This document shows positions 45,380-54,122 of a stretch of 64,000 nt of DNA, piece after piece. The notes below the pieces were generated by a model. That model made no database searches. It saw only the letters and a list, made by a program, of their open reading frames with translations, and was not told the DNA's origin. Within the stretch, counting starts at the first letter, position 1, and every line of letters starts with the position of its first letter. A program made the position numbers and the translations under genes. Origin of the DNA: an uncultured virus (IMG/VR IMGVR_UViG_3300047554_000629) (taxonomy: Duplodnaviria > Heunggongvirae > Uroviricota > Caudoviricetes); the IMG/VR virus record IMGVR_UViG_3300047554_000629, positions 1-64,000 of that record. One strand, written 5' to 3'.

Positions 45380-45775
45380 GGGGAACATGAAGCCAACTCA
45401 GCAGACTACAAAACAGGTTAATAGACCATCTCGGTCATGCGTTTGTGCCACTTGCACTCTTGACGAGAGGCTCAGAAGCAATGGCTTCAAGATTCTAGCT
45501 AGGCCAAGAAATTCTCAGCCGATCTGGATAAAGGACGGGAAGCAGTTTCTTCAGTCTGACGCCGTTCAGCAGTGCAAACCTTTGCCAGCAAAAAGGTAGT
45601 CACGCGATTCCCAACCGAAAGCGTAAGCCGTCTGAAAAGCCGCCTTCGTATTGGGCAGAGCATGTAAGAATTGTCGAAGAAGAAAACAAAAAGCTGCGAA
45701 CCATCATAGTTGACATGATGCACAAAATGCAGCAAGCAGCTGAAATTGCCTCTCCGTTCTTCAGAAAGAGCAACC

Positions 45776-46366
45776 GTGAAGCTACTCTTGAATAACTGGA
45801 GAACGCCAGCAACCGGATACAAGCTGAAAACACTCGGCTGCGCGTCCATCGTCGCAACCGAATACCCCAAGGGCGTATATCCGATGCACGGTGAGTCCGG
45901 CTTCTCAGACTTCCAGTGCCTCAGTCCGATCCGAATCACCATGCTGGCCATCAATGAACACGTTTCGATGTGGGACGAGCCTCCTCATTGGTACGGCATC
46001 CAGCGATGTGCCAGGGCCATGCACGGGAAAGTCCTTGTCGCTGGCCTCGGTCTTGGCCTAATCGCCCATGCCCTCAAATGGAACAAGGCTGTCCGCGAAA
46101 TACTGATCATCGAAAACAACCAAGACGTTATCGACCTCATCGGCCCCATGTGCCCACGCTCGGCACAAATCGAACACGCCGACTGGTATCGATGGGAAGG
46201 CCGATTCGAGCCAGATAGCGTACTCATGGACTTGGCAGATGGCGATTACACCAAAGAACGTGTGGCCGACGAAACCGAGAAATGCCGACAAAGGTTCCCA
46301 TCGGCGACAACGATCTCCGTCCACGGAAGCGTAGAGTCTAGGCAGAACGAGATGAGTGCTTTCTAA
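45776..46366 (+). CDS. spermidine-synthase-like SAM-dependent transferase
   Basis: GKVLVAGLGLG...IIENNQDVI. Confidence 0.65.
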   Translation: MKLLLNNWRTPATGYKLKTLGCASIVATEYPKGVYPMHGESGFSDFQCLSPIRITMLAINEHVSMWDEPPHWYGIQRCARAMHGKVLVAGLGLGLIAHALKWNKAVREILIIENNQDVIDLIGPMCPRSAQIEHADWYRWEGRFEPDSVLMDLADGDYTKERVADETEKCRQRFPSATTISVHGSVESRQNEMSAF

Positions 46367-46428
46367 CAACGAAAGGAGATTTCGTAAACAACCCCACGGC
46401 TGAAGCCGGGGGGCTTTGCCGCTGGGTT

Positions 46429-47502
46429 TTAGCCCGCGACTTTTGGGGCCGGTTTACTGACGGCCCAAGCCCTCAAATTGAGGGCAGCGTTTCGGTCGGC
46501 ATTTGTGGAGTGCCCGCAATGTTTGCAGACAAACTCAGACTGGCTCTTTCGGTTGGCACGCTCGCAGTGGCCGCAGACATGGCACGTCTGGGAACTGTAT
46601 CGCGGGTCAACCAAGACTACGGACACGCCTGCCCGTCGGGCCTTGTACTCCACAAACTGCCGAAGCTGAAAGAAACTCCAGTTGCCAAGTCGTCGCCGGA
46701 AACGCCTAGAAGCCGTTTGCTCACAACGGTCACGCAAACCGGAGAGGTTCTCCAGAGCGATACCGATGCCGAGTGTCTTGGCTTTGCCGACAAGACTCTT
46801 GCTGATGGCGTGGTTTACCCATGCTTGATAGCGGGACTGCCGCCCCGCCATCCGCTTCAACCGTCGCTTGGCAGACTTGGTTCCTTTCCGTTGGTACTGC
46901 TTACGGGCTGTCATCCGGCGCTTGCGGTTTCGTTCGACACCCGCACCGGAGAACGATTCCCCGGTGGAGTCGGTAGCAATCTGGACAATGCCAAAGTCAC
47001 AACCCAAGTATTCGGTAACCGGCTGTGGGTCGGAAACGGTCGCCTTGACTTGAACATGCAGAAAGTAACCGCCATCGCGTTTGACAAGTGCAGCGCTGGT
47101 CGGAACCTTCCCCGCAAGCGCGGTTCGCTGAAAGTCGCCAAGTTGGGTCGTCAGTCGATGCCGCCCATGCAACAGGGTCAGGCTGAAAGTCCAGTCGGAT
47201 TCTCGGAAGGAAAAGATTCGAGCATCGTAGTTCACGCTCGTAGGAGCAAATCGGGAGAGGTCTTTTACGGCGGCAACGCGACCGATGGCACGAACGGCCA
47301 GATTCGCCGACAGCCCGAACGCAGTCCGCGTTTCGCGGTAGGCCAATTTGTGCAGAGCGAGATGTCCTTTAGTCTCTGTCTCTGCCGCACGACGAACCAA
47401 GTGATTGCACGCCGCAGCGAAAGCCACAAGTGTAACGTCGATTTCAACCGCCTGTTCAGCGGTCGGAACCAGCTTGCAACAGATGGTACGGATGGCTTCC
47501 AT
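46429..47502 (-). CDS. tnpB: TnpB RNA-guided nuclease
   Basis: GCDFG, ALENL, zinc ribbon, NADRNAALN. Confidence 0.9.
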   Translation of the reverse strand: MEAIRTICCKLVPTAEQAVEIDVTLVAFAAACNHLVRRAAETETKGHLALHKLAYRETRTAFGLSANLAVRAIGRVAAVKDLSRFAPTSVNYDARIFSFRESDWTFSLTLLHGRHRLTTQLGDFQRTALAGKVPTSAALVKRDGGYFLHVQVKATVSDPQPVTEYLGCDFGIVQIATDSTGESFSGAGVERNRKRRMTARKQYQRKGTKSAKRRLKRMAGRQSRYQAWVNHAISKSLVGKAKTLGIGIALENLSGLRDRCEQTASRRFRRRLGNWSFFQLRQFVEYKARRAGVSVVLVDPRYSSQTCHVCGHCERANRKSQSEFVCKHCGHSTNADRNAALNLRAWAVSKPAPKVAG

Positions 47503-47895
47503 TCAGACACCCTTCTGGTTCTCGATGTACTGCTTGATAACGGCCAGAGGCGCGCCGCCAACAGTCGCGACAAAGTAGGAGTTCGTCCAGAGCGATGGCA
47601 ACCGGCTACGCAACGCTGGGTACTCCGTGCGCAGGAACCGGGACGAACGGCCCTTGACCAACTTTATCAGCCGGTGGATTCCGAACTGTGGATCGACTTC
47701 AACGAGCAGATGTACGTGATCGGGCATCACTTCCATCTCGATCAGTTCCGAACGGGTTTCAAGGATCACTTCCCGAATCAGATTCTTGAGCCGTTCATCA
47801 ACGCCGTCGATCAAGACCTTGCGACGATACTTGGGGCAGAAAACAACGTGGTACTTGCAGCAGTAGGACACGTTGTTATTGCTCTTGAGCCTCAT
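47503..47895 (-). CDS. tnpA: Y1 HUH transposase
   Basis: YHVVFCPKYRR, DHVHLL, LWTNSYF, YIENQK. Confidence 0.95.
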   Translation of the reverse strand: MRLKSNNNVSYCCKYHVVFCPKYRRKVLIDGVDERLKNLIREVILETRSELIEMEVMPDHVHLLVEVDPQFGIHRLIKLVKGRSSRFLRTEYPALRSRLPSLWTNSYFVATVGGAPLAVIKQYIENQKGV

Positions 47896-48092
47896 TCCTG
47901 TATTATACACGTCCGAGATGTCGAATGCCACCTCAGTAGCGTGGATTCGCCGTCTCCATTCCTCCCCATGCCTGAAGGCAGGGGTTTCTTGGAGACATTT
48001 CATGAACAGCAAAGCCAAATTTTGGTTTGTGTTCGCTATTGTGTCTTCATGCTTTTGTGCGTTCTTATTCTCAATCTACTCATGGAAAGTCT

Positions 48093-48116
48093 GGTAGTGG
48101 CTCAACATGGTGTTGA
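48093..48116 (+). repeat. 24-bp inverted repeat, left copy
   Basis: GGTAGTGGCTCAACATGGTGTTGA; exact reverse complement at 49309-49332. Confidence 0.95.
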
Positions 48117-48140
48117 CAACCTGGACGACCCTGATAGAGT
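48113..48140 (+). promoter_or_regulatory. sigma70-like promoter of the stand-alone tnpB (probably leaderless)
   Basis: TTGACA-16 nt-TAGAGT, 7 nt before GTG. Confidence 0.55.
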
Positions 48141-48147
48141 TATCCTT

Positions 48148-49323
48148 GTGCTGAAAACGATTACCTATCGTCTGTACCCGTCGCGGGAGCAGGAATCTTT
48201 CCTGTTCTACTTCCTCTACATTGGCCGCAAGATTTACAACGACGCACTTGCCGAGCGCGTCCGGTTCTACAAAGACACTGGCAAAAGCCTGACTAAATTC
48301 ACGCAACAGATGGACCTGACGATACGCAGGTCAATTAGCCCGGTGCTTGCCTCTGTCCCTGTCTGGATTGAGCGAGACTCCCTGTCTAGGATAGACAAGG
48401 CATTCGCCAATTTCTTCCGCAGAGTAAATGAAGGGAGTGCCAAGCCTGGGTTCCCGCGATTCAAGTCAGCCAATCGCTGGAACAGTTTCTCAATGCCTAT
48501 CCAAGGCAGTGGCAAGAAACTGGTGCAAGGAAATAGAATCCGCGTGGCCGGGATTGAAGGAACAATGCCAAGCCGTGGCGGGCAACAAATACTTGGAAAG
48601 ATCATTGTCCAGAGAATTGTTCATCGAGCAGGCAAGTGGTTCTGCAAGTTCGTAGTTGATGACAAACTCGACCCACCGCCTATTCATCCTGTAAAGTCGG
48701 CTATCGGCGTCGATGTTGGTCTGAAATCGTTTGCAACGCTTAGCAACGGTTCAACGATTGAGAATCCACGATTCTATCGGGGACTGGAACTCAAGCGTGC
48801 CCATCGCAACGTGTCTCGTAAAATCAAAGGCAGTCGGAACCGATGGAGAGCCGTTCGTCGTCTTCAATCGGTTTATGAGAAAGTCAGAAACTTACGCCAC
48901 AATTTTACGCATCACGAGAGCAAGAGGATTGTCAATGACCACCAACTGATTGTTGTCGAAAAACTGAACATAGCTGGCATGGCCAGAAGCCGATTTGCCA
49001 AAAGTATCTTGGACGCTGCATGGGGTCGGTTCATATTTCAATTGCGTTACAAAGCTGAAAACGCTGGTTGCGCATTCGTTGAAGTTGACCCCCGTGGCAC
49101 AAGCCAAGATTGCAGCAAGTGCGGCCAGACCGTGCCAAAGAAGTTGTCGGATCGTGTCCATAAATGCTCTTGCGGTCTCGTGCTAGACCGCGACCATAAT
49201 GCGGCGTTGAACATCCTTCAGCGTGCCGTTCGATCAGCACCCGGCCCCGGTAGGTGGATCGGTAAAGCGTGTGGAGAGGCTACGAAGACTCGGCGAAACA
49301 CGAAGGCTTCAACACCATGTTGA
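48148..49323 (+). CDS. tnpB: stand-alone TnpB with intact RuvC D-E-D
   Basis: TYRLYP, GFPRFK, GVDVGL, VVEKL, TSQDCSKC, DRDHNAALN; true start lies inside the 937-aa track ORF. Confidence 0.9.
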   Translation: MLKTITYRLYPSREQESFLFYFLYIGRKIYNDALAERVRFYKDTGKSLTKFTQQMDLTIRRSISPVLASVPVWIERDSLSRIDKAFANFFRRVNEGSAKPGFPRFKSANRWNSFSMPIQGSGKKLVQGNRIRVAGIEGTMPSRGGQQILGKIIVQRIVHRAGKWFCKFVVDDKLDPPPIHPVKSAIGVDVGLKSFATLSNGSTIENPRFYRGLELKRAHRNVSRKIKGSRNRWRAVRRLQSVYEKVRNLRHNFTHHESKRIVNDHQLIVVEKLNIAGMARSRFAKSILDAAWGRFIFQLRYKAENAGCAFVEVDPRGTSQDCSKCGQTVPKKLSDRVHKCSCGLVLDRDHNAALNILQRAVRSAPGPGRWIGKACGEATKTRRNTKASTPC

Positions 49324-49332
49324 GCCACTACC
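49225..49332 (+). ncRNA. putative omega RNA overlapping the tnpB 3' end
   Basis: CGTGTGGAG...GAAACACGAA (CGTGT/ACACG pairing) then GGCTTCAAC; boundaries approximate. Confidence 0.55.
49309..49332 (-). repeat. 24-bp inverted repeat, right copy
   Basis: TCAACACCATGTTGAGCCACTACC. Confidence 0.95.
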
Positions 49333-49413
49333 GAAGTGTTCTACAATAGGCGTCATTCGCATGTACGAGCGATAGGCAAGCCGAAATGCTTGAGAAGAAG
49401 AAAGGAAACAACA

Positions 49414-50028
49414 ATGGTTCGTAAAATTGGAAGAATCCAGTTCCCGGTTTTTTCTGGAATCCGCTGTTTGATGCTCCCTTATATTCAAGGAGATTCAAAA
49501 AGCGTCCCGCATGAGTATGGTCATGGATACGAATCAATACTCGACGACCTTTATGTCAGGAAAGGGGACATCGGGTTTTTGACAATTGACGAATCAATTG
49601 CTCATTCTGGATCGCCGCATCGCGGAGCGAGAGCCAAGCATGGACGGGCATTGCATACAGAGGCAGGTCGTCATCCAGACATGGTGTACGCCTGGGGTGG
49701 CGGGAATTGGGGCGGCTCCAATAGAACAACGCTGAGCAGAGATGTTAAGGTTCTCATTTCAAACAGCATCGACAAGACTTGCGCTGTTTGGGATGCAGAG
49801 CATGAAAACACTACCATTGACGGGGACATTGGGTATTTGAGTGATCGTTATCCTTACGATTCTGCGATGTTCATGATGGCCGGTGAAGTGTACGAGATCG
49901 GAATCCTGACTCCACACGAAAGCCTTCCAGTCAACCAAGACACAAGGCGGCAGTTTATTCGCATTGTGTCGTCTGGGGTGAATGGAAGAGAGCCGTATTT
50001 TACCAAGAACAGGCTTCTTGATTACTAG
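49414..50028 (+). CDS. hypothetical protein, possible 2OG-Fe(II) oxygenase fold
   Basis: LTIDES...LHTE...TPHES...RQFIRI. Confidence 0.45.
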   Translation: MVRKIGRIQFPVFSGIRCLMLPYIQGDSKSVPHEYGHGYESILDDLYVRKGDIGFLTIDESIAHSGSPHRGARAKHGRALHTEAGRHPDMVYAWGGGNWGGSNRTTLSRDVKVLISNSIDKTCAVWDAEHENTTIDGDIGYLSDRYPYDSAMFMMAGEVYEIGILTPHESLPVNQDTRRQFIRIVSSGVNGREPYFTKNRLLDY

Positions 50029-50035
50029 GTTGCCA

Positions 50036-50275
50036 AAGAAATAGGCGCAACTCGCGCCTATTTCCGCCTCCCCCACAGGCTGACCTTCTTTTCGTCTCTT
50101 CGGGGCGGCTCGTCTGGTATACTTGCAGGCGAGCCCCTCTGTCCCCTGCCTCCGATGCCGATCCGTGCGCCCATCGTCTGGTCTGTTCGTGATGCTCCGG
50201 TTTCTATGCCAGCTAGTGAAGCAACTCCGAAGTCGGCATGGAAGTGGGCCAGATTGAATGCGTCCATGCCGTCTG
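50036..50275 (-). repeat. inverted copy of the terL 3' end, including palindrome copy 8 (50040-50062)
   Basis: Ungapped match to 53256-53495 with about 25 mismatches in 240 nt (hand count). Confidence 0.95.
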
Positions 50276-50344
50276 ACAAGCGAAAGAAACAGCACAAGTT
50301 CAAGTGCAGACGATGCCACAAAAAGGCGTTCCTAGAAGAGCCAA

Positions 50345-50881
50345 CTACTTCGGCCGAGGCTTACTGGCCGCAATCTCAGCCTTGACATTCTTATGGCGCT
50401 CTTCCAAGGCTTTGTGCTCTGGAGAGTCGTATCGGTGCATCTGCTTCTGCAGCTTCAACCAACGGCACTCTTTGTCAGGGCTTGCAAAATCTGGGAAACT
50501 CAAGCCGTCCCACTTTTCTCCCTGTTCGGCCCTGTTGACAACCTCATCATCCCAAGTCCTGTATTGCGACTTCAGCTTTTCTTTGTCCCTGGCAATCGTT
50601 GTTGCCGGATCATGCAGCGTAGAAACAACGTAGTATGTCACGATCTTCGTGAGGCCGCCTGAACGCTTCTCGGCAACGAACACGCCGCCAGTCGGCTTGT
50701 GATACCTGTGCTCGATGTCGCTTCGGTTGTTCTTCTGAGACGGGACCATGTTCTTGTCAAGTTTTGACGACTCAAGATATGCCGAGATGATTTCTTTGGC
50801 GTCTTCGTTTACAAAAGACGCGGCCCTCTCGACCCATCGATCATACGCATGGTTGCTTACACTGATTTTTGAACGGTCCAC
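50345..50881 (-). CDS. hypothetical protein, possible RelE-like fold
   Basis: VSNHAYDRWVER...KIVTYY. Confidence 0.45.
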   Translation of the reverse strand: MDRSKISVSNHAYDRWVERAASFVNEDAKEIISAYLESSKLDKNMVPSQKNNRSDIEHRYHKPTGGVFVAEKRSGGLTKIVTYYVVSTLHDPATTIARDKEKLKSQYRTWDDEVVNRAEQGEKWDGLSFPDFASPDKECRWLKLQKQMHRYDSPEHKALEERHKNVKAEIAASKPRPK

Positions 50882-51667: not shown

Positions 51668-53473
51668 ATGTTAAGTGCCTCCGAACTCGCCGAACTTGAA
51701 GCCTATCTCCCGCACGCCAATGAAGATGAACGTCGGAAGATCAACGAGTATCTAGTCTCCATCCGCAAGGTGGAGAACAACTTCCCTTGGGCCGCATACC
51801 GATACGATCCAATCGGCTATGCGTACAACGTCCTTGGCCTCACGTTCCTTTCCGACGATCAGAAGATTGCACTGCGAGCGGCTGTAACGCCTCCGTACCG
51901 AGTGCAAATTGACGCCGGAAACGCTGTTGGCAAAAGCCTAACCTGCGCCGTCTTGGCCTCATGGTTCTACGACTCATATGACCCAGGCTGCGTTTTCACT
52001 ACGGCCCCGACGCACGATCACGTTGTCCGCGTGCTCTGGGCGCAAATACGCTCGCTTAGGTCCAATGCCAAGATGAAGCTACCGATGGACTTCATCGGGC
52101 CAGCTGCACCTGAGATGCGATCATCGGAATATCACTTTGCAAAAGGCCTGACCGCCTCGAAAGGAGAGGCGCTCAAAGGTTCTCACTTGCAGAATATGTG
52201 CTTCATATTCGACGAGTCTGAAGCATTGCCGGTGATGTACTGGGAATCTGTTCGCACGATGTTTAAGCCGCAGCCGGGTATGCTGTGGCTATCCGTGGGC
52301 AACCCGACAACCACCAGCAGCGCTGCATTCCTTGAGTCCACTCGCACGGATGAGAACAAGAAGCCGTTCTGGCGCAACCTGCGCATGAGTGTGCTCAATC
52401 ACCCAAACATCATAGCTGGTCTCCAAGGGCTTCCGCCGCCAATCCCAAACGCCGTCGATGTCGGCATGGTGGATGACTGGGTGCGACGACTATGCACGCC
52501 TCTCGATGAAAAAGAAGAAAAAAAAGCCACTGACTTCCAGTGGCGAGGAAGATGGTATCGGCCAAGCGGTGAAGCCGAGACGGTCATTCTCGGCTGTCGC
52601 CCGTCAACAGGAGCATCCGGCGTTTGGTCAGACTCGCTCTGGGAAGCCTGTTGCCATCTCGATTTGCCGTTCCCAATCGATCAACCACCCGAACTTGGCT
52701 GTGACGTGGCCAGAGTCCTTGGTGGCGATGATTGCGACATTCACGCACAATGGGGCGGCAACTCTCTCGCCCATGACTCTGCCAATGGCCGCTCTATACC
52801 AGCTACCATCGCTCGTCTCAAAGAGATGGCCGAAGAAGTATGCGAGTTTGCCAACGCCAAGAGAAAGGAACTTGTGGCCACTGGCAAATACTCACCCGAA
52901 GAACTCTCCAGGGCTCAAATCCACAAGCCGTGGGTTCCCAAAGAAATACCTGTCAAGATCGACGATTGCGGCATCGGCAACGTCATCACCGACTTTGCAG
53001 ACGGCTGGAACTTCATCCCAGTCAACCCAGGCTGGGCTGCAAAGCAAGACCTACGTTATCCCAACGTCCGAAGCGAGCTGTGGTTTGAGACCCAGGAGAA
53101 GGCCATACTGTTCGGCCTCAGCATGAAGCACCTGTCTGAAGATGATCAGCAGATGCTGCGTATCCAATCCTTTGCGCCAAAGTGGGAGTTGGATGCTAGA
53201 CGCCGACGAGTTGTTGAGAGCAAAGAGGACACAAAGAAACGACTTGGCCGCTCGCCAGACGGCATGGACGCATTCAATCTTGCCCACTTCCATGCCAACT
53301 TTGGCGTGGCCTCATTGGCAGGCATCGAAACCGGAGTATCACGAACAGACCAGACGATGGGCGCACGAATCGGCATCGGCGGCAGGGGACAGAGGGGCTC
53401 GCCTGCGAGTGTTCCAGACGAGCCGCCTAGAAGAGACGAGAACAAAGTTACTCTGTGGGGGAGGCGGAAATAG
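51668..53473 (+). CDS. terL: terminase large subunit
   Basis: Walker A GNAVGKS, Walker B FIFDES, GNP, nuclease LGCDVAR and SPDGMDA. Confidence 0.9.
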   Translation: MLSASELAELEAYLPHANEDERRKINEYLVSIRKVENNFPWAAYRYDPIGYAYNVLGLTFLSDDQKIALRAAVTPPYRVQIDAGNAVGKSLTCAVLASWFYDSYDPGCVFTTAPTHDHVVRVLWAQIRSLRSNAKMKLPMDFIGPAAPEMRSSEYHFAKGLTASKGEALKGSHLQNMCFIFDESEALPVMYWESVRTMFKPQPGMLWLSVGNPTTTSSAAFLESTRTDENKKPFWRNLRMSVLNHPNIIAGLQGLPPPIPNAVDVGMVDDWVRRLCTPLDEKEEKKATDFQWRGRWYRPSGEAETVILGCRPSTGASGVWSDSLWEACCHLDLPFPIDQPPELGCDVARVLGGDDCDIHAQWGGNSLAHDSANGRSIPATIARLKEMAEEVCEFANAKRKELVATGKYSPEELSRAQIHKPWVPKEIPVKIDDCGIGNVITDFADGWNFIPVNPGWAAKQDLRYPNVRSELWFETQEKAILFGLSMKHLSEDDQQMLRIQSFAPKWELDARRRRVVESKEDTKKRLGRSPDGMDAFNLAHFHANFGVASLAGIETGVSRTDQTMGARIGIGGRGQRGSPASVPDEPPRRDENKVTLWGRRK

Positions 53474-54122
53474 GCGCGAGTTGCGCCGATTTCTTCTTAT
53501 CAAGCATCTCAGTCAAATGCTTCCGAATGGCCGAATTTTGGTCATCGCATTGCTTATTGTAATCGAACAAGTCTTCGGGACTGTTGAAGAACATCCTGCC
53601 TACCAGTCGTTGGTCTTCTACGCGGAATCTGTCGTCTTTGTCAATGAAGCAGAACTCTTTCTCTGATGAAGCCACCAGCCTGAACTGGTTCCCATCGCTA
53701 TCAAACACCGTCATGTTCACGCCAAACACGCAACCAGGATGCTCAGGGTCAGGAAACTTTTCACGAGCGTCTCGAATGTCTTTTGCCGACAGGCAGACCT
53801 CGGTATTGTGATAAACAAGCACAATCGTCTTCAGTTTGCCCCAGTCCAAGACGGCCTTGTACCGTATCGATTCATAGTCTTCGCCGAAGCCCGTGTACGT
53901 AAAGCCATAAGCGGCCCCGACGCAGTTGTCGTCATAGAAGACAATCTCGCCGGAGAACGGAACCTGATCGCCGTCAAGCGACAGGCCACGCTCCATTTCA
54001 ATCCAATATGTCTCAAGATGGCAACCAAGGCTCTTCGTCTGGTACTGATGGCGCGCATCCTTGATGAAGTTCGCCTTCTTCGGCAGCGGCGCAGTGCAGA
54101 TGATCGTGTCATACATTCCCAT
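53448..54122 (-). CDS. phage hypothetical protein
   Basis: MGMYDTIIC...YQTKSL motif. Confidence 0.6.
   Translation of the reverse strand: MGMYDTIICTAPLPKKANFIKDARHQYQTKSLGCHLETYWIEMERGLSLDGDQVPFSGEIVFYDDNCVGAAYGFTYTGFGEDYESIRYKAVLDWGKLKTIVLVYHNTEVCLSAKDIRDAREKFPDPEHPGCVFGVNMTVFDSDGNQFRLVASSEKEFCFIDKDDRFRVEDQRLVGRMFFNSPEDLFDYNKQCDDQNSAIRKHLTEMLDKKKSAQLAPISASPTE
53469..53491. repeat. 23-bp palindrome family, copy 9
   Basis: AATAGGCGCGAGTTGCGCCGATT; supplies the terL stop and is read as SAQLAPI in the convergent ORF. Confidence 0.9.

What the first reader, a model, noticed from the sequence alone, without database searches (positions are those of the whole stretch)
48093..49332. Stand-alone TnpB whose predicted guide perfectly matches its own promoter, or a TIR-bounded TnpB element
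Seen: after the omega-RNA-like scaffold ending GGCTTCAAC comes ACCATGTTGAGCCACTACC, the exact reverse complement of 48093-48111 beside the gene's own -35 box. The sequence 5' of this target is TGTCAAC, containing the reverse complement of TTGACA. No IS605-type end hairpin is visible, and RuvC D-E-D is intact. Established: nuclease-dead TnpB derivatives (TldR) repress promoters using guide RNAs. Inference A: RNA-guided autoregulation using the -35 box as TAM. Inference B: the 24-bp repeats are transposon ends (GGTAGTGG resembles IS1-family ends), giving a non-autonomous TIR element that carries TnpB and may target its own left end. I see no clean target duplication.
Basis: partly seen in the sequence, partly recalled or inferred. 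Interest (0 to 1): 0.8.

Follow-up and report, generated by a model that had tools for sequence, protein, structure and literature searches.

The report
TnpB gene inside an IS1-type transposon
The perfect 24-base inverted repeat around this phage-borne TnpB gene is most likely the pair of terminal repeats of a small IS1-type transposon that carries TnpB as its only gene and has no transposase of its own, rather than a guide RNA evolved to match the gene's promoter.

Summary
Arms 48093-48116 and 49309-49332 are a perfect 24-nt inverted repeat, with none expected by chance. They bracket an apparently nuclease-competent tnpB (48148-49323).

Reading B (a TIR-bounded element) is supported. A second phage contig (L266) carries a TnpB that is 56.6% identical, in the same layout:
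- The repeat starts 54-55 nt before the start codon, and TTGACA abuts the left arm.
- The stop codon lies 9 nt from the outer end.
- The outer tips are the same (GGTAGTG), while the inner arm sequence differs but matches between left and right.
- A clean 8-bp target duplication flanks the element.

L266's 19-nt arm also occurs in seven further phage contigs.
- Four of these hold bounded elements with 8-bp duplications and no TnpB. Two of the four contain remnants of an IS1-like transposase.
- A fifth contig has the arm followed by an IS1-like transposase gene.

So the repeat is a transposase substrate, not a product of guide-promoter matching. The window copy has no target duplication, and I found no cognate transposase for it.

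Reading A is not needed to explain the repeat. One question stays open. The right arm begins 3 nt (window) or 0 nt (L266) after the last conserved block of the putative guide-RNA (ωRNA) scaffold, so the arm sits where a guide normally would. DDE-associated TnpBs with inverted ends are published. An IS1 link was not found in the papers I searched.

The parts
48093..48116 (+). Left terminal inverted repeat (IRL), 24 nt, with outer tip GGTAGTG
   Evidence: Perfect inverted repeat with 49309-49332. The same 7-nt tip is found on the L266-type arms and, as a candidate end, 15 nt beyond the stop of the L273 IS1-like transposase gene, where no partner arm was found.
48113..48140 (+). Promoter-like site for tnpB: TTGACA, 16-nt spacer, TAGAGT, with TG before the -10. 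Its -35 overlaps the inner end of IRL.
   Evidence: 10 of 12 matches. A site at the homologous position in L266 is TTGACA-17-TAGCAT. The start codon lies 7 nt (window) or 6 nt (L266) after the -10, which suggests a leaderless mRNA (inference).
48148..49323 (+). tnpB (391 aa, GTG start). RuvC D189/E271/D349 and the CxxC...CxC zinc finger are present. The last 5 codons (4 complete, plus the third base of the preceding codon) and the stop codon lie inside the right repeat.
   Evidence: Pfam; alignment A1; PDB match to ISDra2 TnpB at E 3e-50.
49248..49305 (+). Putative 3' part of the ωRNA scaffold. Nucleotide blocks shared with L266: CGGTAGG, CGGTAA.GC.TGTGGAG and GAAACA.GAAG. The last block ends 3 nt before the right repeat.
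   Evidence: Sequence comparison. GAAACA.GAAG is read in different frames in the two genes (R-N-T-K against E-T-G-S). Related tails occur in all three frames among clade proteins, so the conservation is at nucleic-acid level. No RNA data and no Rfam match.
49309..49332 (+). Right terminal inverted repeat (IRR), 24 nt. The outer end lies 9 nt after the tnpB stop codon.
   Evidence: The stop-to-end distance is the same 9 nt in L266.

Best explanation
Positions 48093-48332... more exactly 48093-49332 form a 1,240-bp non-autonomous DNA transposon of the IS1 type that has landed in a phage genome. Its two 24-bp terminal inverted repeats (tips GGTAGTG...CACTACC) are the binding and cleavage sites of an IS1-like DDE transposase supplied in trans, probably by the host. 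Its only gene is a nuclease-competent tnpB. That gene is transcribed from a sigma-70-like promoter abutting the left repeat, probably as a leaderless mRNA. Its ωRNA is expected to come from the 3' end of the gene and to run into the right repeat.

Shown:
- The repeat, the gene and the promoter-like site.
- The conserved layout in a 56.6%-identical homologue that has an 8-bp target duplication.
- The use of that homologue's repeat by elements without TnpB.
- Its linkage to an IS1-like transposase gene.

Inferred:
- That the window's own repeat variant is recognised by such a transposase.
- That the element is or was mobile in this phage.
- What the TnpB-ωRNA complex targets. Two options remain open. 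The guide may lie beyond the right repeat (and any target duplication), as reported for Fanzor1 in TIR elements. Or the right repeat itself may fill the guide position.
For: 1. The repeat is real and unique: 24 of 24 nt, none expected by chance.

2. It is specific to this clade. Among 171 relatives at 30-57% identity with usable flanks, only L266 has an upstream/downstream inverted repeat longer than 11 nt. A first set of 91 loci matched a mismatched-pair control.

3. L266 lies in a different, complete 128.9-kb phage. Its TnpB is 56.6% identical.
- Its 1,236-bp element starts GGTAGTGTCCTAATTTGGA followed by TTGACA, 54 nt before the ATG.
- It ends ...TCCAAATTAG GACACTGCC, 9 nt after the stop codon.
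- It is flanked by the direct repeat CTTTCTTT on both sides, right after a terminator-like hairpin.

4. L266's 19-mer is present, exact, in 7 other viral contigs, none with a TnpB within 2 kb.
- In 4 of the 7 a partner arm lies within the 2 kb fetched, giving elements of 789, 773, 502 and 1,135 bp.
- Their 8-bp duplications are GATTGGGG, GGAAGGGC, AGATTCTA/AGATTCCA and GCGGCACG.
- So 5 of 5 bounded L266-type elements have an 8-bp duplication, 4 of them perfect.

5. The link to an IS1-like transposase.
- L278 has the same arm, then about 900 nt, then a transposase gene. Its scores are NCBIfam transpos_IS1 E 1.2e-17 and Pfam DDE_Tnp_IS1 31.2 bits, above the 24.1 cut-off.
- L271 and L272 hold remnants of that transposase's C- and N-terminus.
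- Relatives of the L273 transposase are named 'IS1 family transposase' by NCBI and JGI, and most carry PF03400.

6. ISfinder's IS1 features, as reproduced in PMC10425158 Table 8 (passage read), are ends GGnnnTG and direct repeats of 8-9 bp. GGTAGTG fits this pattern.

7. Precedent.
- Altae-Tran et al. [quoted passage not shown] They also report solo TnpBs flanked by the same ends as transposase-bearing elements.
- Yoon et al. 2023 (PMC10711439, passages read) describe a non-autonomous TIR/TSD element encoding only Fanzor1.
Against: - The window copy has no target duplication (4 of 8 flank bases alike).
- No second insertion bounded by the window's own 24-mer was found. The only other hit in viral contigs is the same phage, 100% identical over 6-7 kb.
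- No IS1-like transposase is present in the window, in its 71.8-kb and 104.7-kb records, or in L266's phage. No transposase with the window-type repeat was found anywhere.
- Only two TnpB elements of the close clade could be seen as DNA. The metagenome and genome scans returned only relatives at 49% identity or less.
- The transposase matches to the IS1 model are below NCBIfam's curated cut-off (64.5 and 52.1 bits against 100). The IS6 Pfam model also passes its cut-off in L278 (28.9 against 27).
- The GGnnnTG tip is shared by the IS6/IS26 family (PMC6807381, passage read).
- Contigs of three sequencing runs showed no joint that skips the element. Contigs drop rare variants, so this neither shows nor excludes current mobility.
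Confidence: 0.8

Rival explanations
1. Reading A. The 3'-terminal 19-20 nt of the element are the ωRNA guide. The repeat exists because this guide pairs with the DNA beside the gene's own -35 box. TnpB would then bind (or cut) its own promoter region and autoregulate, using the complement of TTGACA as its TAM.
For: - The right arm starts 3 nt (window) or 0 nt (L266) after the last conserved scaffold block GAAACA.GAAG. That is where a guide normally begins.
- In both TnpB elements the left arm is followed by TTGACA. On the bottom strand the matching sequence is therefore preceded by TGTCAA.
- At the right end the preceding bases differ: CTTCAA in the window and AGGAAG in L266. A 5-6-nt TAM could therefore spare the element's own right end.
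- I saw no TTGACA directly after the arm in the seven L266-type contigs without TnpB (by eye).
Against: - The same repeat bounds four elements with no TnpB, no ωRNA and no promoter. It also sits beside a transposase gene. Its existence therefore does not depend on a guide.
- The outer 7 nt are conserved between the two TnpB elements although they would be the TAM-distal end of a guide. This is expected for transposon tips, not for a guide.
- RuvC is intact, so binding should lead to cutting of the carrier genome. Known promoter-repressing TnpB derivatives (TldR) are nuclease-dead, as the finding itself states; I read no paper on this here.
- For Fanzor1 in TIR elements, the TIR and target duplication are part of the scaffold and the RNA runs about 15 nt beyond them (PMC10711439, passages).
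- The TAM is unknown.
Confidence: 0.1
2. An ordinary IS200/IS605-type TnpB-only element (IS1341-like), mobilised as single-stranded DNA by the neighbouring Y1 TnpA. On this view the repeat arms are its end hairpins or are coincidental.
For: - A Y1 TnpA gene lies 130-250 nt away on the other strand.
- The protein is closest in the PDB to ISDra2 TnpB.
- Each arm contains a short internal hairpin.
Against: - The neighbouring IS605 element has its own matched end hairpins at 47965-47987 and about 46389-46411. Both have a TTCA loop and a bulged T on the minus strand. I saw nothing like them at the ends of this tnpB (by eye; no pattern search).
- The family is defined by the absence of terminal inverted repeats and of target duplications (PMC13565253, passage read). 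This element has 24-bp repeats, and its homologue has an 8-bp duplication.
- 170 more distant relatives lack such repeats.
Confidence: 0.04
3. The element inserted into the loop of a pre-existing long hairpin or palindrome in the phage, so the two arms are target DNA rather than part of the element. This was my own early idea.
For: Removing 48117-49308 would leave a perfect 48-bp palindrome. Transposons of single-stranded DNA could favour exposed loops (inference).
Against: - L266 has the same geometry and the same 7-nt tips in an unrelated site. There the true target sequence is visible as an 8-bp duplication outside the arms.
- The arms of the L266 type travel with five different elements.
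- The tnpB stop codon lies inside the arm at the same distance from the end in both elements.
Confidence: 0.02
4. The two arms pair at the RNA level, closing the mRNA 5' and 3' ends into a 24-bp duplex for processing or stability.
For: Perfect complementarity over 24 nt.
Against: The promoter-like site lies at the inner edge of the left arm, with its -10 only 7 nt before the start codon, in both elements. The left arm would therefore not be in the tnpB transcript. The same arms also occur on elements with other cargo.
Confidence: 0.02

Closest known systems
DDE-transposase-associated TnpB branches with inverted terminal repeats, including solo TnpBs flanked by the same ends (Altae-Tran et al. 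2023, PMC10691335, section 9 read)
   Same: - TnpB lies inside a transposon with symmetrical inverted ends.
- The TnpB 3' end lies close to the transposon end (here 9 nt; they report within 250 bp).
- A solo TnpB is presumably mobilised in trans by a transposase that uses the same ends.
   Different: - The DDE families named in what I could read are IS630 and ISL2, IS630 and IS1031 (review PMC13565253, passage). IS1 is not named.
- Their figure 4 and additional files 10-11, which list the ends, were not available to me. An IS1-type case could be among them.
- Here the carriers are bacteriophage genomes.
- Here the same ends are shared with small elements that carry other cargo.
IS1 family insertion sequences (ISfinder features as reproduced in PMC10425158 Table 8, passage read)
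   Same: - Tips fit GGnnnTG, and the arms are about 19-24 bp.
- 8-bp target duplications occur in the homologous elements.
- The transposase genes linked to these ends score best against IS1 models, and their relatives are named IS1 family transposase.
- As I recall (no call), transposase promoters in IS1 also reach into the left repeat.
   Different: - The element has no transposase gene; its cargo is tnpB.
- It is 1,240 bp, against the listed 740-1,180 bp.
- The window copy has no duplication.
- The transposase matches are distant, below NCBIfam's cut-off.
- The GGnnnTG tip and the 8-bp duplication are also typical of IS6/IS26 (PMC6807381).
Non-autonomous TIR/TSD element encoding only Fanzor1 in Spodoptera frugiperda ascovirus (Yoon et al. 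2023, PMC10711439, passages read)
   Same: - A virus-borne, transposase-less element with terminal inverted repeats and short target duplications.
- Its only gene is a TnpB-family RNA-guided nuclease.
- The RNA gene overlaps the right end.
   Different: - That element is eukaryotic, from a virus of insects, and its nuclease is Fanzor1.
- There, RNA-seq showed that the TIR and target duplication are part of the scaffold and that the RNA extends about 15 nt beyond. Here no RNA data exist.
- I found no consistent pairing of the right arm with the scaffold in both elements.
IS200/IS605 family, IS1341-type TnpB-only elements, and ISDra2 TnpB
   Same: The protein has the same three Pfam domains and an intact RuvC site. 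Its best solved relative is ISDra2 TnpB, at E 3e-50.
   Different: That family has no terminal inverted repeats, makes no target duplication and has hairpin ends (PMC13565253). This element has the opposite features.
TldR, nuclease-dead TnpB derivatives that repress promoters with guide RNAs (as stated in the finding; no paper read here)
   Same: A fixed RNA segment is complementary to DNA next to a promoter.
   Different: RuvC D-E-D is intact here. The complementary DNA is a transposon end that also occurs on elements without TnpB.

Membership tests
IS1 family (as a non-autonomous derivative) | Terminal inverted repeats with tips GGnnnTG | tested here: met
   Both ends read GGTAGTG from the outside. 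The rule is taken from PMC10425158 Table 8. The same tip rule holds for most IS6/IS26 members (PMC6807381), so it is not exclusive to IS1.
IS1 family (as a non-autonomous derivative) | Direct target duplication of 8-9 bp | tested here: inconclusive
   Not present at the window copy (GAAAGTCT against GAAGTGTT). Present at 5 of 5 bounded L266-type elements, 4 of them perfect.
IS1 family (as a non-autonomous derivative) | Mobilised by an IS1-family DDE transposase that recognises these ends | tested here: inconclusive
   None in the window, G000, G001 or G002. The L266-type arm lies beside an IS1-like transposase gene in L278, and transposase remnants lie inside L271 and L272. No transposase was found with the window-type arm. 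Binding and transposition cannot be tested here.
IS1 family (as a non-autonomous derivative) | Linked transposase belongs to IS1 by sequence | tested here: inconclusive
   - NCBIfam transpos_IS1 is the best hit (64.5 and 52.1 bits) but lies below the 100-bit cut-off.
- Pfam DDE_Tnp_IS1 scores 31.2 bits (cut-off 24.1) in L278 and 18.5 bits in L273.
- IS240/IS6 scores 28.9 bits (cut-off 27) in L278.
- Relatives are named 'IS1 family transposase' and most carry PF03400.
IS200/IS605 family (IS1341-type) | No terminal inverted repeats and no target duplication; hairpin-forming left and right ends | tested here: not met
   The element has a 24-nt perfect inverted repeat. Its homologue has an 8-bp duplication. 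I saw no hairpins of the kind found at the neighbouring IS605 element (by eye). The definition is from PMC13565253.
TnpB RNA-guided nuclease | OrfB_IS605 / TNB domains with the RuvC D-E-D triad and a zinc finger | tested here: met
TnpB RNA-guided nuclease | ωRNA encoded at the 3' end of the gene, with a guide | not testable with these tools
   Nucleotide blocks are conserved irrespective of reading frame, which suggests an RNA. There is no Rfam match, and no RNA run is listed. The guide boundary is unknown.
TldR-type transcription regulators | Loss of RuvC catalytic residues | tested here: not met
   D189, E271 and D349 are present and invariant in the clade.
DDE-associated TnpB (Altae-Tran 2023) | Inverted terminal repeats around TnpB, TnpB 3' end within 250 bp of the end, and the same ends on transposase-bearing elements | tested here: met
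   (the end lies 9 nt after the stop codon). Searches cover the L266-type ends. For the window-type ends, no transposase-bearing partner was seen.

The most novel reading that the evidence does not exclude
In this TnpB lineage the right terminal repeat of an IS1-type transposon has taken the place of the guide, so the nuclease is hard-wired to recognise its own transposon end. The complex would pair with the left repeat next to a TGTCAA motif, the complement of the gene's -35 box. There it would either shut off its own promoter or cut at the TAM-distal end of the match. That end is the outer tip of the left repeat, which is where the transposon joins its flank. This would be an RNA-guided protein acting on transposon ends rather than on the empty target site.
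Probability: 0.12. Interest if true: 0.85.

Novelty: new variant of a known kind. Interest (0 to 1): 0.5.

Why it matters
TnpB is normally tied to transposons that excise without a scar, and its guide is simply the neighbouring DNA. Cases inside cut-and-paste or copy-type DDE transposons are rare in prokaryotes. They are thought to mirror how eukaryotic Fanzors arose.

This is a compact, phage-borne example with three features of interest. The ends look like IS1 ends. The same ends move other cargo between phages. The transposon end sits exactly where the guide should be. That last feature makes one question directly testable: what does a TnpB target once it lives in a TIR/TSD element, the flank beyond the repeat or the repeat itself?

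It also flags a family of small IS1-type cargo elements in freshwater phage genomes.

Tried and rejected
- Empty site. Relatives of the two flanking phage genes were sought in viral contigs. Six other contigs share only the 49414-50025 gene and nothing else within 6 kb, so no empty site was found.

- Close relatives as DNA. They returned only relatives at 49% identity or less.
  - The phage and plasmid collections gave nothing at 60% identity or above; the best rows were near 41%.
  - 0 of 401 Chloroflexota genomes matched at E 1e-95. Only 4 candidates per genome were scored, and no positive control rang.
  - One viral scan was lost to a pattern I mistyped.

- Sequencing runs. No RNA holder was listed. 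Contigs of two runs from the probable source sample, and of one independent study, showed no joint skipping the element. The independent run holds 151-nt pieces identical to parts of both tnpB genes. Contigs cannot show rare excision.

- Rfam: no match in 45500-50500 at E up to 1.

- Folding.
  - The last 184 nt of the gene fold no better than shuffles (z 0.22).
  - Pairing of the right arm with the upstream 260 nt beats shuffled arms in the window (-25.3 kcal/mol against a mean of -18.7; frac<=obs 0.010 of 200 shuffles).
  - It does not do so in L266 (-13.1 against -14.6; 74% of shuffles as good).
  - So there is no consistent sign that the arm is folded into the scaffold.

- Partner flanks. 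The 8- and 12-nt flanks were searched elsewhere in the window to test for an inversion or deletion product. No 12-nt partner exists. Three 8-nt matches elsewhere in the 64 kb (24527, 63118, 63599) are about what chance gives.

- Host. The terminase gave only matches of 25% identity or less to isolated phages. One tRNA-Met was found. The protein atlas gave mixed taxa. Cluster look-up gave no organism names.

- A partner arm for the L273 transposase element was not found.

- Earlier findings of this scan were not open.
Full report
**What is there**

The window is part of an IMG/VR virus record of 71.8 kb. A second record of 104.7 kb is the same phage, 100% identical over the 6-7 kb compared. The region holds two mobile elements head to head.

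On the minus strand lies a complete IS605-type element.
- Its Y1 TnpA (Pfam Y1_Tnp, E 3e-42) is at 47503-~47895/48018, and a 357-aa TnpB is at 46429-47502.
- It has matched end hairpins at 47965-47987 and about 46389-46411. Both have a TTCA loop and a bulged T when read on the minus strand.

On the plus strand lies the gene of the finding, a 391-aa TnpB at 48148-49323.
- It has the HTH_OrfB_IS605, OrfB_IS605 and Cas12f1-like_TNB domains.
- It matches ISDra2 TnpB structures at E 3e-50.
- D189, E271, D349 and the zinc-finger cysteines are invariant in a 26-sequence alignment.

**The observation**

The inverted repeat is real.
- The arms are 48093-48116 and 49309-49332, 24 nt, 100% complementary.
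- There are two matches and none expected in 100 shuffles.
- No further copy exists in either record of this phage.
- The right arm covers the last 5 codons (4 complete plus the final base of a fifth) and the stop codon of tnpB, and ends 9 nt after the stop.
- The left arm overlaps a promoter-like site, TTGACA-16-TAGAGT with TG before the -10 (48113-48140).
- That site ends 7 nt before GTG 48148. The HTH profile aligns from residue 1 of that start. The mRNA is therefore probably leaderless, and the left arm is probably not transcribed from this promoter (inference).
- The flanks GAAAGTCT and GAAGTGTT are not a duplication.

**Is the repeat a family feature?**

Not of TnpB in general.
- In 91 relatives at 30-45% identity, the longest exact upstream/downstream inverted repeat was 11 nt or less, the same as in mismatched pairs.
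- In a larger set of 171 loci, a single locus stood out. That locus, L266, came from a back-translated pattern specific to the close clade.
- L266 lies in a different, complete 128.9-kb phage with direct terminal repeats. Its TnpB is 56.6% identical to the window's.

L266 has the same layout.
- The element starts GGTAGTGTCCTAATTTGGA, then TTGACA, 54 nt before the ATG.
- Its promoter-like site is TTGACA-17-TAGCAT, also with TG, and ends 6 nt before the ATG.
- The element ends ...GGAAG TCCAAATTAG GACACTGCC, 9 nt after the stop codon.
- It is 1,236 bp, against 1,240 bp in the window.
- The arms match each other in 18 of 19 positions.
- The outer 7 nt (GGTAGTG) are the same as in the window. The inner part differs between the two elements but matches between left and right within each.
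- The element is flanked on both sides by CTTTCTTT. This is the T-tract of a 12-bp-stem hairpin that looks like the terminator of the upstream gene. It is a clean 8-bp target duplication.

**The decisive test**

I scanned the viral contigs for L266's 19-mer. It occurs, exact, in seven further contigs, none with a TnpB within 2 kb.

In four of the seven a partner arm lies within the 2 kb fetched:

| Locus | Element length | 8-bp duplication |
|---|---|---|
| L271 | 789 bp | GATTGGGG |
| L272 | 773 bp | GGAAGGGC |
| L275 | 502 bp | AGATTCTA / AGATTCCA |
| L279 | 1,135 bp | GCGGCACG |

Their cargo is varied.
- L271 holds a remnant of a transposase C-terminus.
- L272 holds a remnant of its N-terminus together with a small ribbon-helix-helix-like reading frame.
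- L279 has a 368-aa reading frame of unknown kind on the other strand.

The other three contigs showed no partner arm in the DNA fetched.
- In L278 the arm is followed by about 900 nt and then a transposase gene that runs off the contig end.
- In L273 a 284-aa transposase gene lies about 1 kb outside the arm. A GGTAGTG-tipped sequence (GGTAGTGCTCGCGG...) lies 15 nt beyond its stop codon. This would be a third arm variant with the same tip, but no partner arm was found for it.

The two transposases are 53% identical to each other. Their family scores:

| Model | L278 | L273 | Curated cut-off |
|---|---|---|---|
| NCBIfam transpos_IS1 (best hit for both) | 64.5 bits (E 1.2e-17) | 52.1 bits (E 7.4e-14) | 100 bits |
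| Pfam DDE_Tnp_IS1 | 31.2 bits | 18.5 bits | 24.1 bits |
| Pfam DDE_Tnp_IS240 (IS6) | 28.9 bits | not above cut-off | 27 bits |

The listed relatives of the L273 protein are named 'IS1 family transposase' by NCBI and JGI, and most carry PF03400. The organisms named are Opitutales, Opitutaceae, Limisphaerales and Lacunisphaera.

ISfinder's description of IS1, as reproduced in PMC10425158 Table 8 (passage read), is 740-1,180 bp, direct repeats of 8-9 bp and ends GGnnnTG. GGTAGTG fits. Harmer and Hall (PMC6807381, passage read) note that the same tip pattern is shared by IS6/IS26, which makes 8-bp duplications. The family call therefore rests mainly on the transposase, and it is a distant IS1 relative.

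**What follows**

The repeat is a transposon end. In the L266 family it exists on elements without TnpB, without an ωRNA and without a promoter beside it. It makes target duplications, and it is linked to a DDE transposase gene.

The window element shares the tips, the size, the promoter position and the stop-to-end distance with L266. I therefore read it as the same kind of element with a diverged inner arm, presumably matched to a different transposase.

- Neither phage encodes an IS1-like transposase, so mobilisation must be in trans. This is inferred.
- The missing duplication at the window copy is unexplained. Harmer and Hall suggest for IS6/IS26 that missing duplications may come from deletion of adjacent DNA by the element's own activity. 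The same could apply here (inference).
- I found no partner flank in the window.

**The open point: where is the guide?**

The two elements share nucleotide blocks in the last 85 nt: CGGTAGG, CGGTAA.GC.TGTGGAG and GAAACA.GAAG (49248-49305 in the window).

- The last block is read as R-N-T-K in the window and as E-T-G-S in L266.
- I tested the 120 proteins listed with a loose pattern for tails that would encode the same nucleotides in each of the three frames.
  - Of the 120, 29 lacked the anchor motif and 91 were assessed.
  - 11 had KQE, 15 had E[TA]G[ST], 9 had R.RK-like tails and 56 had none of my patterns.
  - Several of the 56 have NQEV, a close variant.
- The conservation is therefore at nucleic-acid level, as expected for an ωRNA scaffold.

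The right arm begins 3 nt (window) or 0 nt (L266) after this block, where a guide normally starts. Two readings remain.

1. The arm, and any duplication, is an added part of the scaffold and the guide is the flank beyond it. This is what small-RNA-seq showed for Fanzor1 in a TIR/TSD element (PMC10711439, passages). I found no consistent pairing of the arm with upstream RNA in both elements.

2. The arm itself is read as a fixed guide. In that case the matching DNA at the left end is preceded on the bottom strand by TGTCAA in both elements. The right end itself is preceded by CTTCAA (window) or AGGAAG (L266).

No call decides between the two readings.

**Comparison with what is known**

- Altae-Tran et al. 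2023 (PMC10691335, section 9 read) report TnpB branches associated with DDE transposases. All have inverted terminal repeats, and some solo TnpBs are flanked by the same ends.
- A 2026 review (PMC13565253, passages) names ISL2, IS630 and IS1031 as the DDE families involved.
- My searches for TnpB together with 'IS1 family' listed no paper holding both terms among the 12 shown.
- The first search, for TnpB with terminal inverted repeats and target site duplication, gave 32 papers. I opened the relevant ones.
- The figure and additional files of the 2023 paper that list the ends were not available to me. An IS1-type case there cannot be excluded.

I therefore rate this a new variant of a known kind.

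**Limits**

- Only two TnpB elements of the close clade were seen as DNA.
- The window-type arm has no independent second insertion.
- There are no RNA data.
- The host is unknown. Verrucomicrobiota is only a lead, taken from the names.

Noticed in passing
window 46380-48010 (approximate ends), minus strand: A complete IS605-type element. It has a Y1 TnpA (47503-~47895/48018) and a 357-aa TnpB (46429-47502). Its left- and right-end hairpins match (47965-47987 and about 46389-46411), each with a TTCA loop and a bulged T. It lies head to head with the TIR-bounded TnpB element, 60-85 nt away.
   Followed up: partly
window 50036-50282 and 53249-53495: A 247-bp inverted repeat (89% identical) brackets the large terminase gene. 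The left copy encodes, on the minus strand, a duplicate of the terminase C-terminus. In the source runs, a 3,434-nt contig carries the exact reverse complement of 50049-50282 at its far end, and a change-of-strand joint is reported. This could be an invertible segment or a population variant.
   Followed up: no
window 49320-49347: A promoter-like site reading outward from the element: TTGAGC inside the right repeat, a 16-nt spacer, then TACAAT in the flank (9 of 12 matches). It lies upstream of the phage gene that starts at 49414. This would be a hybrid promoter of the kind insertion sequences often create.
   Followed up: no
L271 2001-2789, L272 2001-2773, L275 2001-2502, L279 2001-3135: A family of small elements in phage contigs, bounded by the same 19-nt IS1-type arm with 8-bp target duplications. 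They carry varied cargo: transposase remnants, a ribbon-helix-helix-like frame, small membrane-like frames and a 368-aa frame of unknown kind.
   Followed up: partly
L278, reverse strand of 3-1862: Between the terminal arm and the IS1-like transposase gene, about 300 codons stay open in the same frame as the transposase. This may be a passenger gene or an N-terminal extension. The contig ends inside the transposase gene.
   Followed up: no
window 46431-46581 and 48871-49021: An independent freshwater-sediment run (X3) holds 151-nt contigs identical to parts of both tnpB genes. The phage or its elements therefore occur in a second study at low depth.
   Followed up: no
window 48004-48034: An imperfect 14-bp-stem palindrome (GAACAGCAAAGCCAAA / TTTTGGTTTGTGTTC) lies between the two mobile elements, near the expected left end of the IS605 element. 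Its role is unknown.
   Followed up: no
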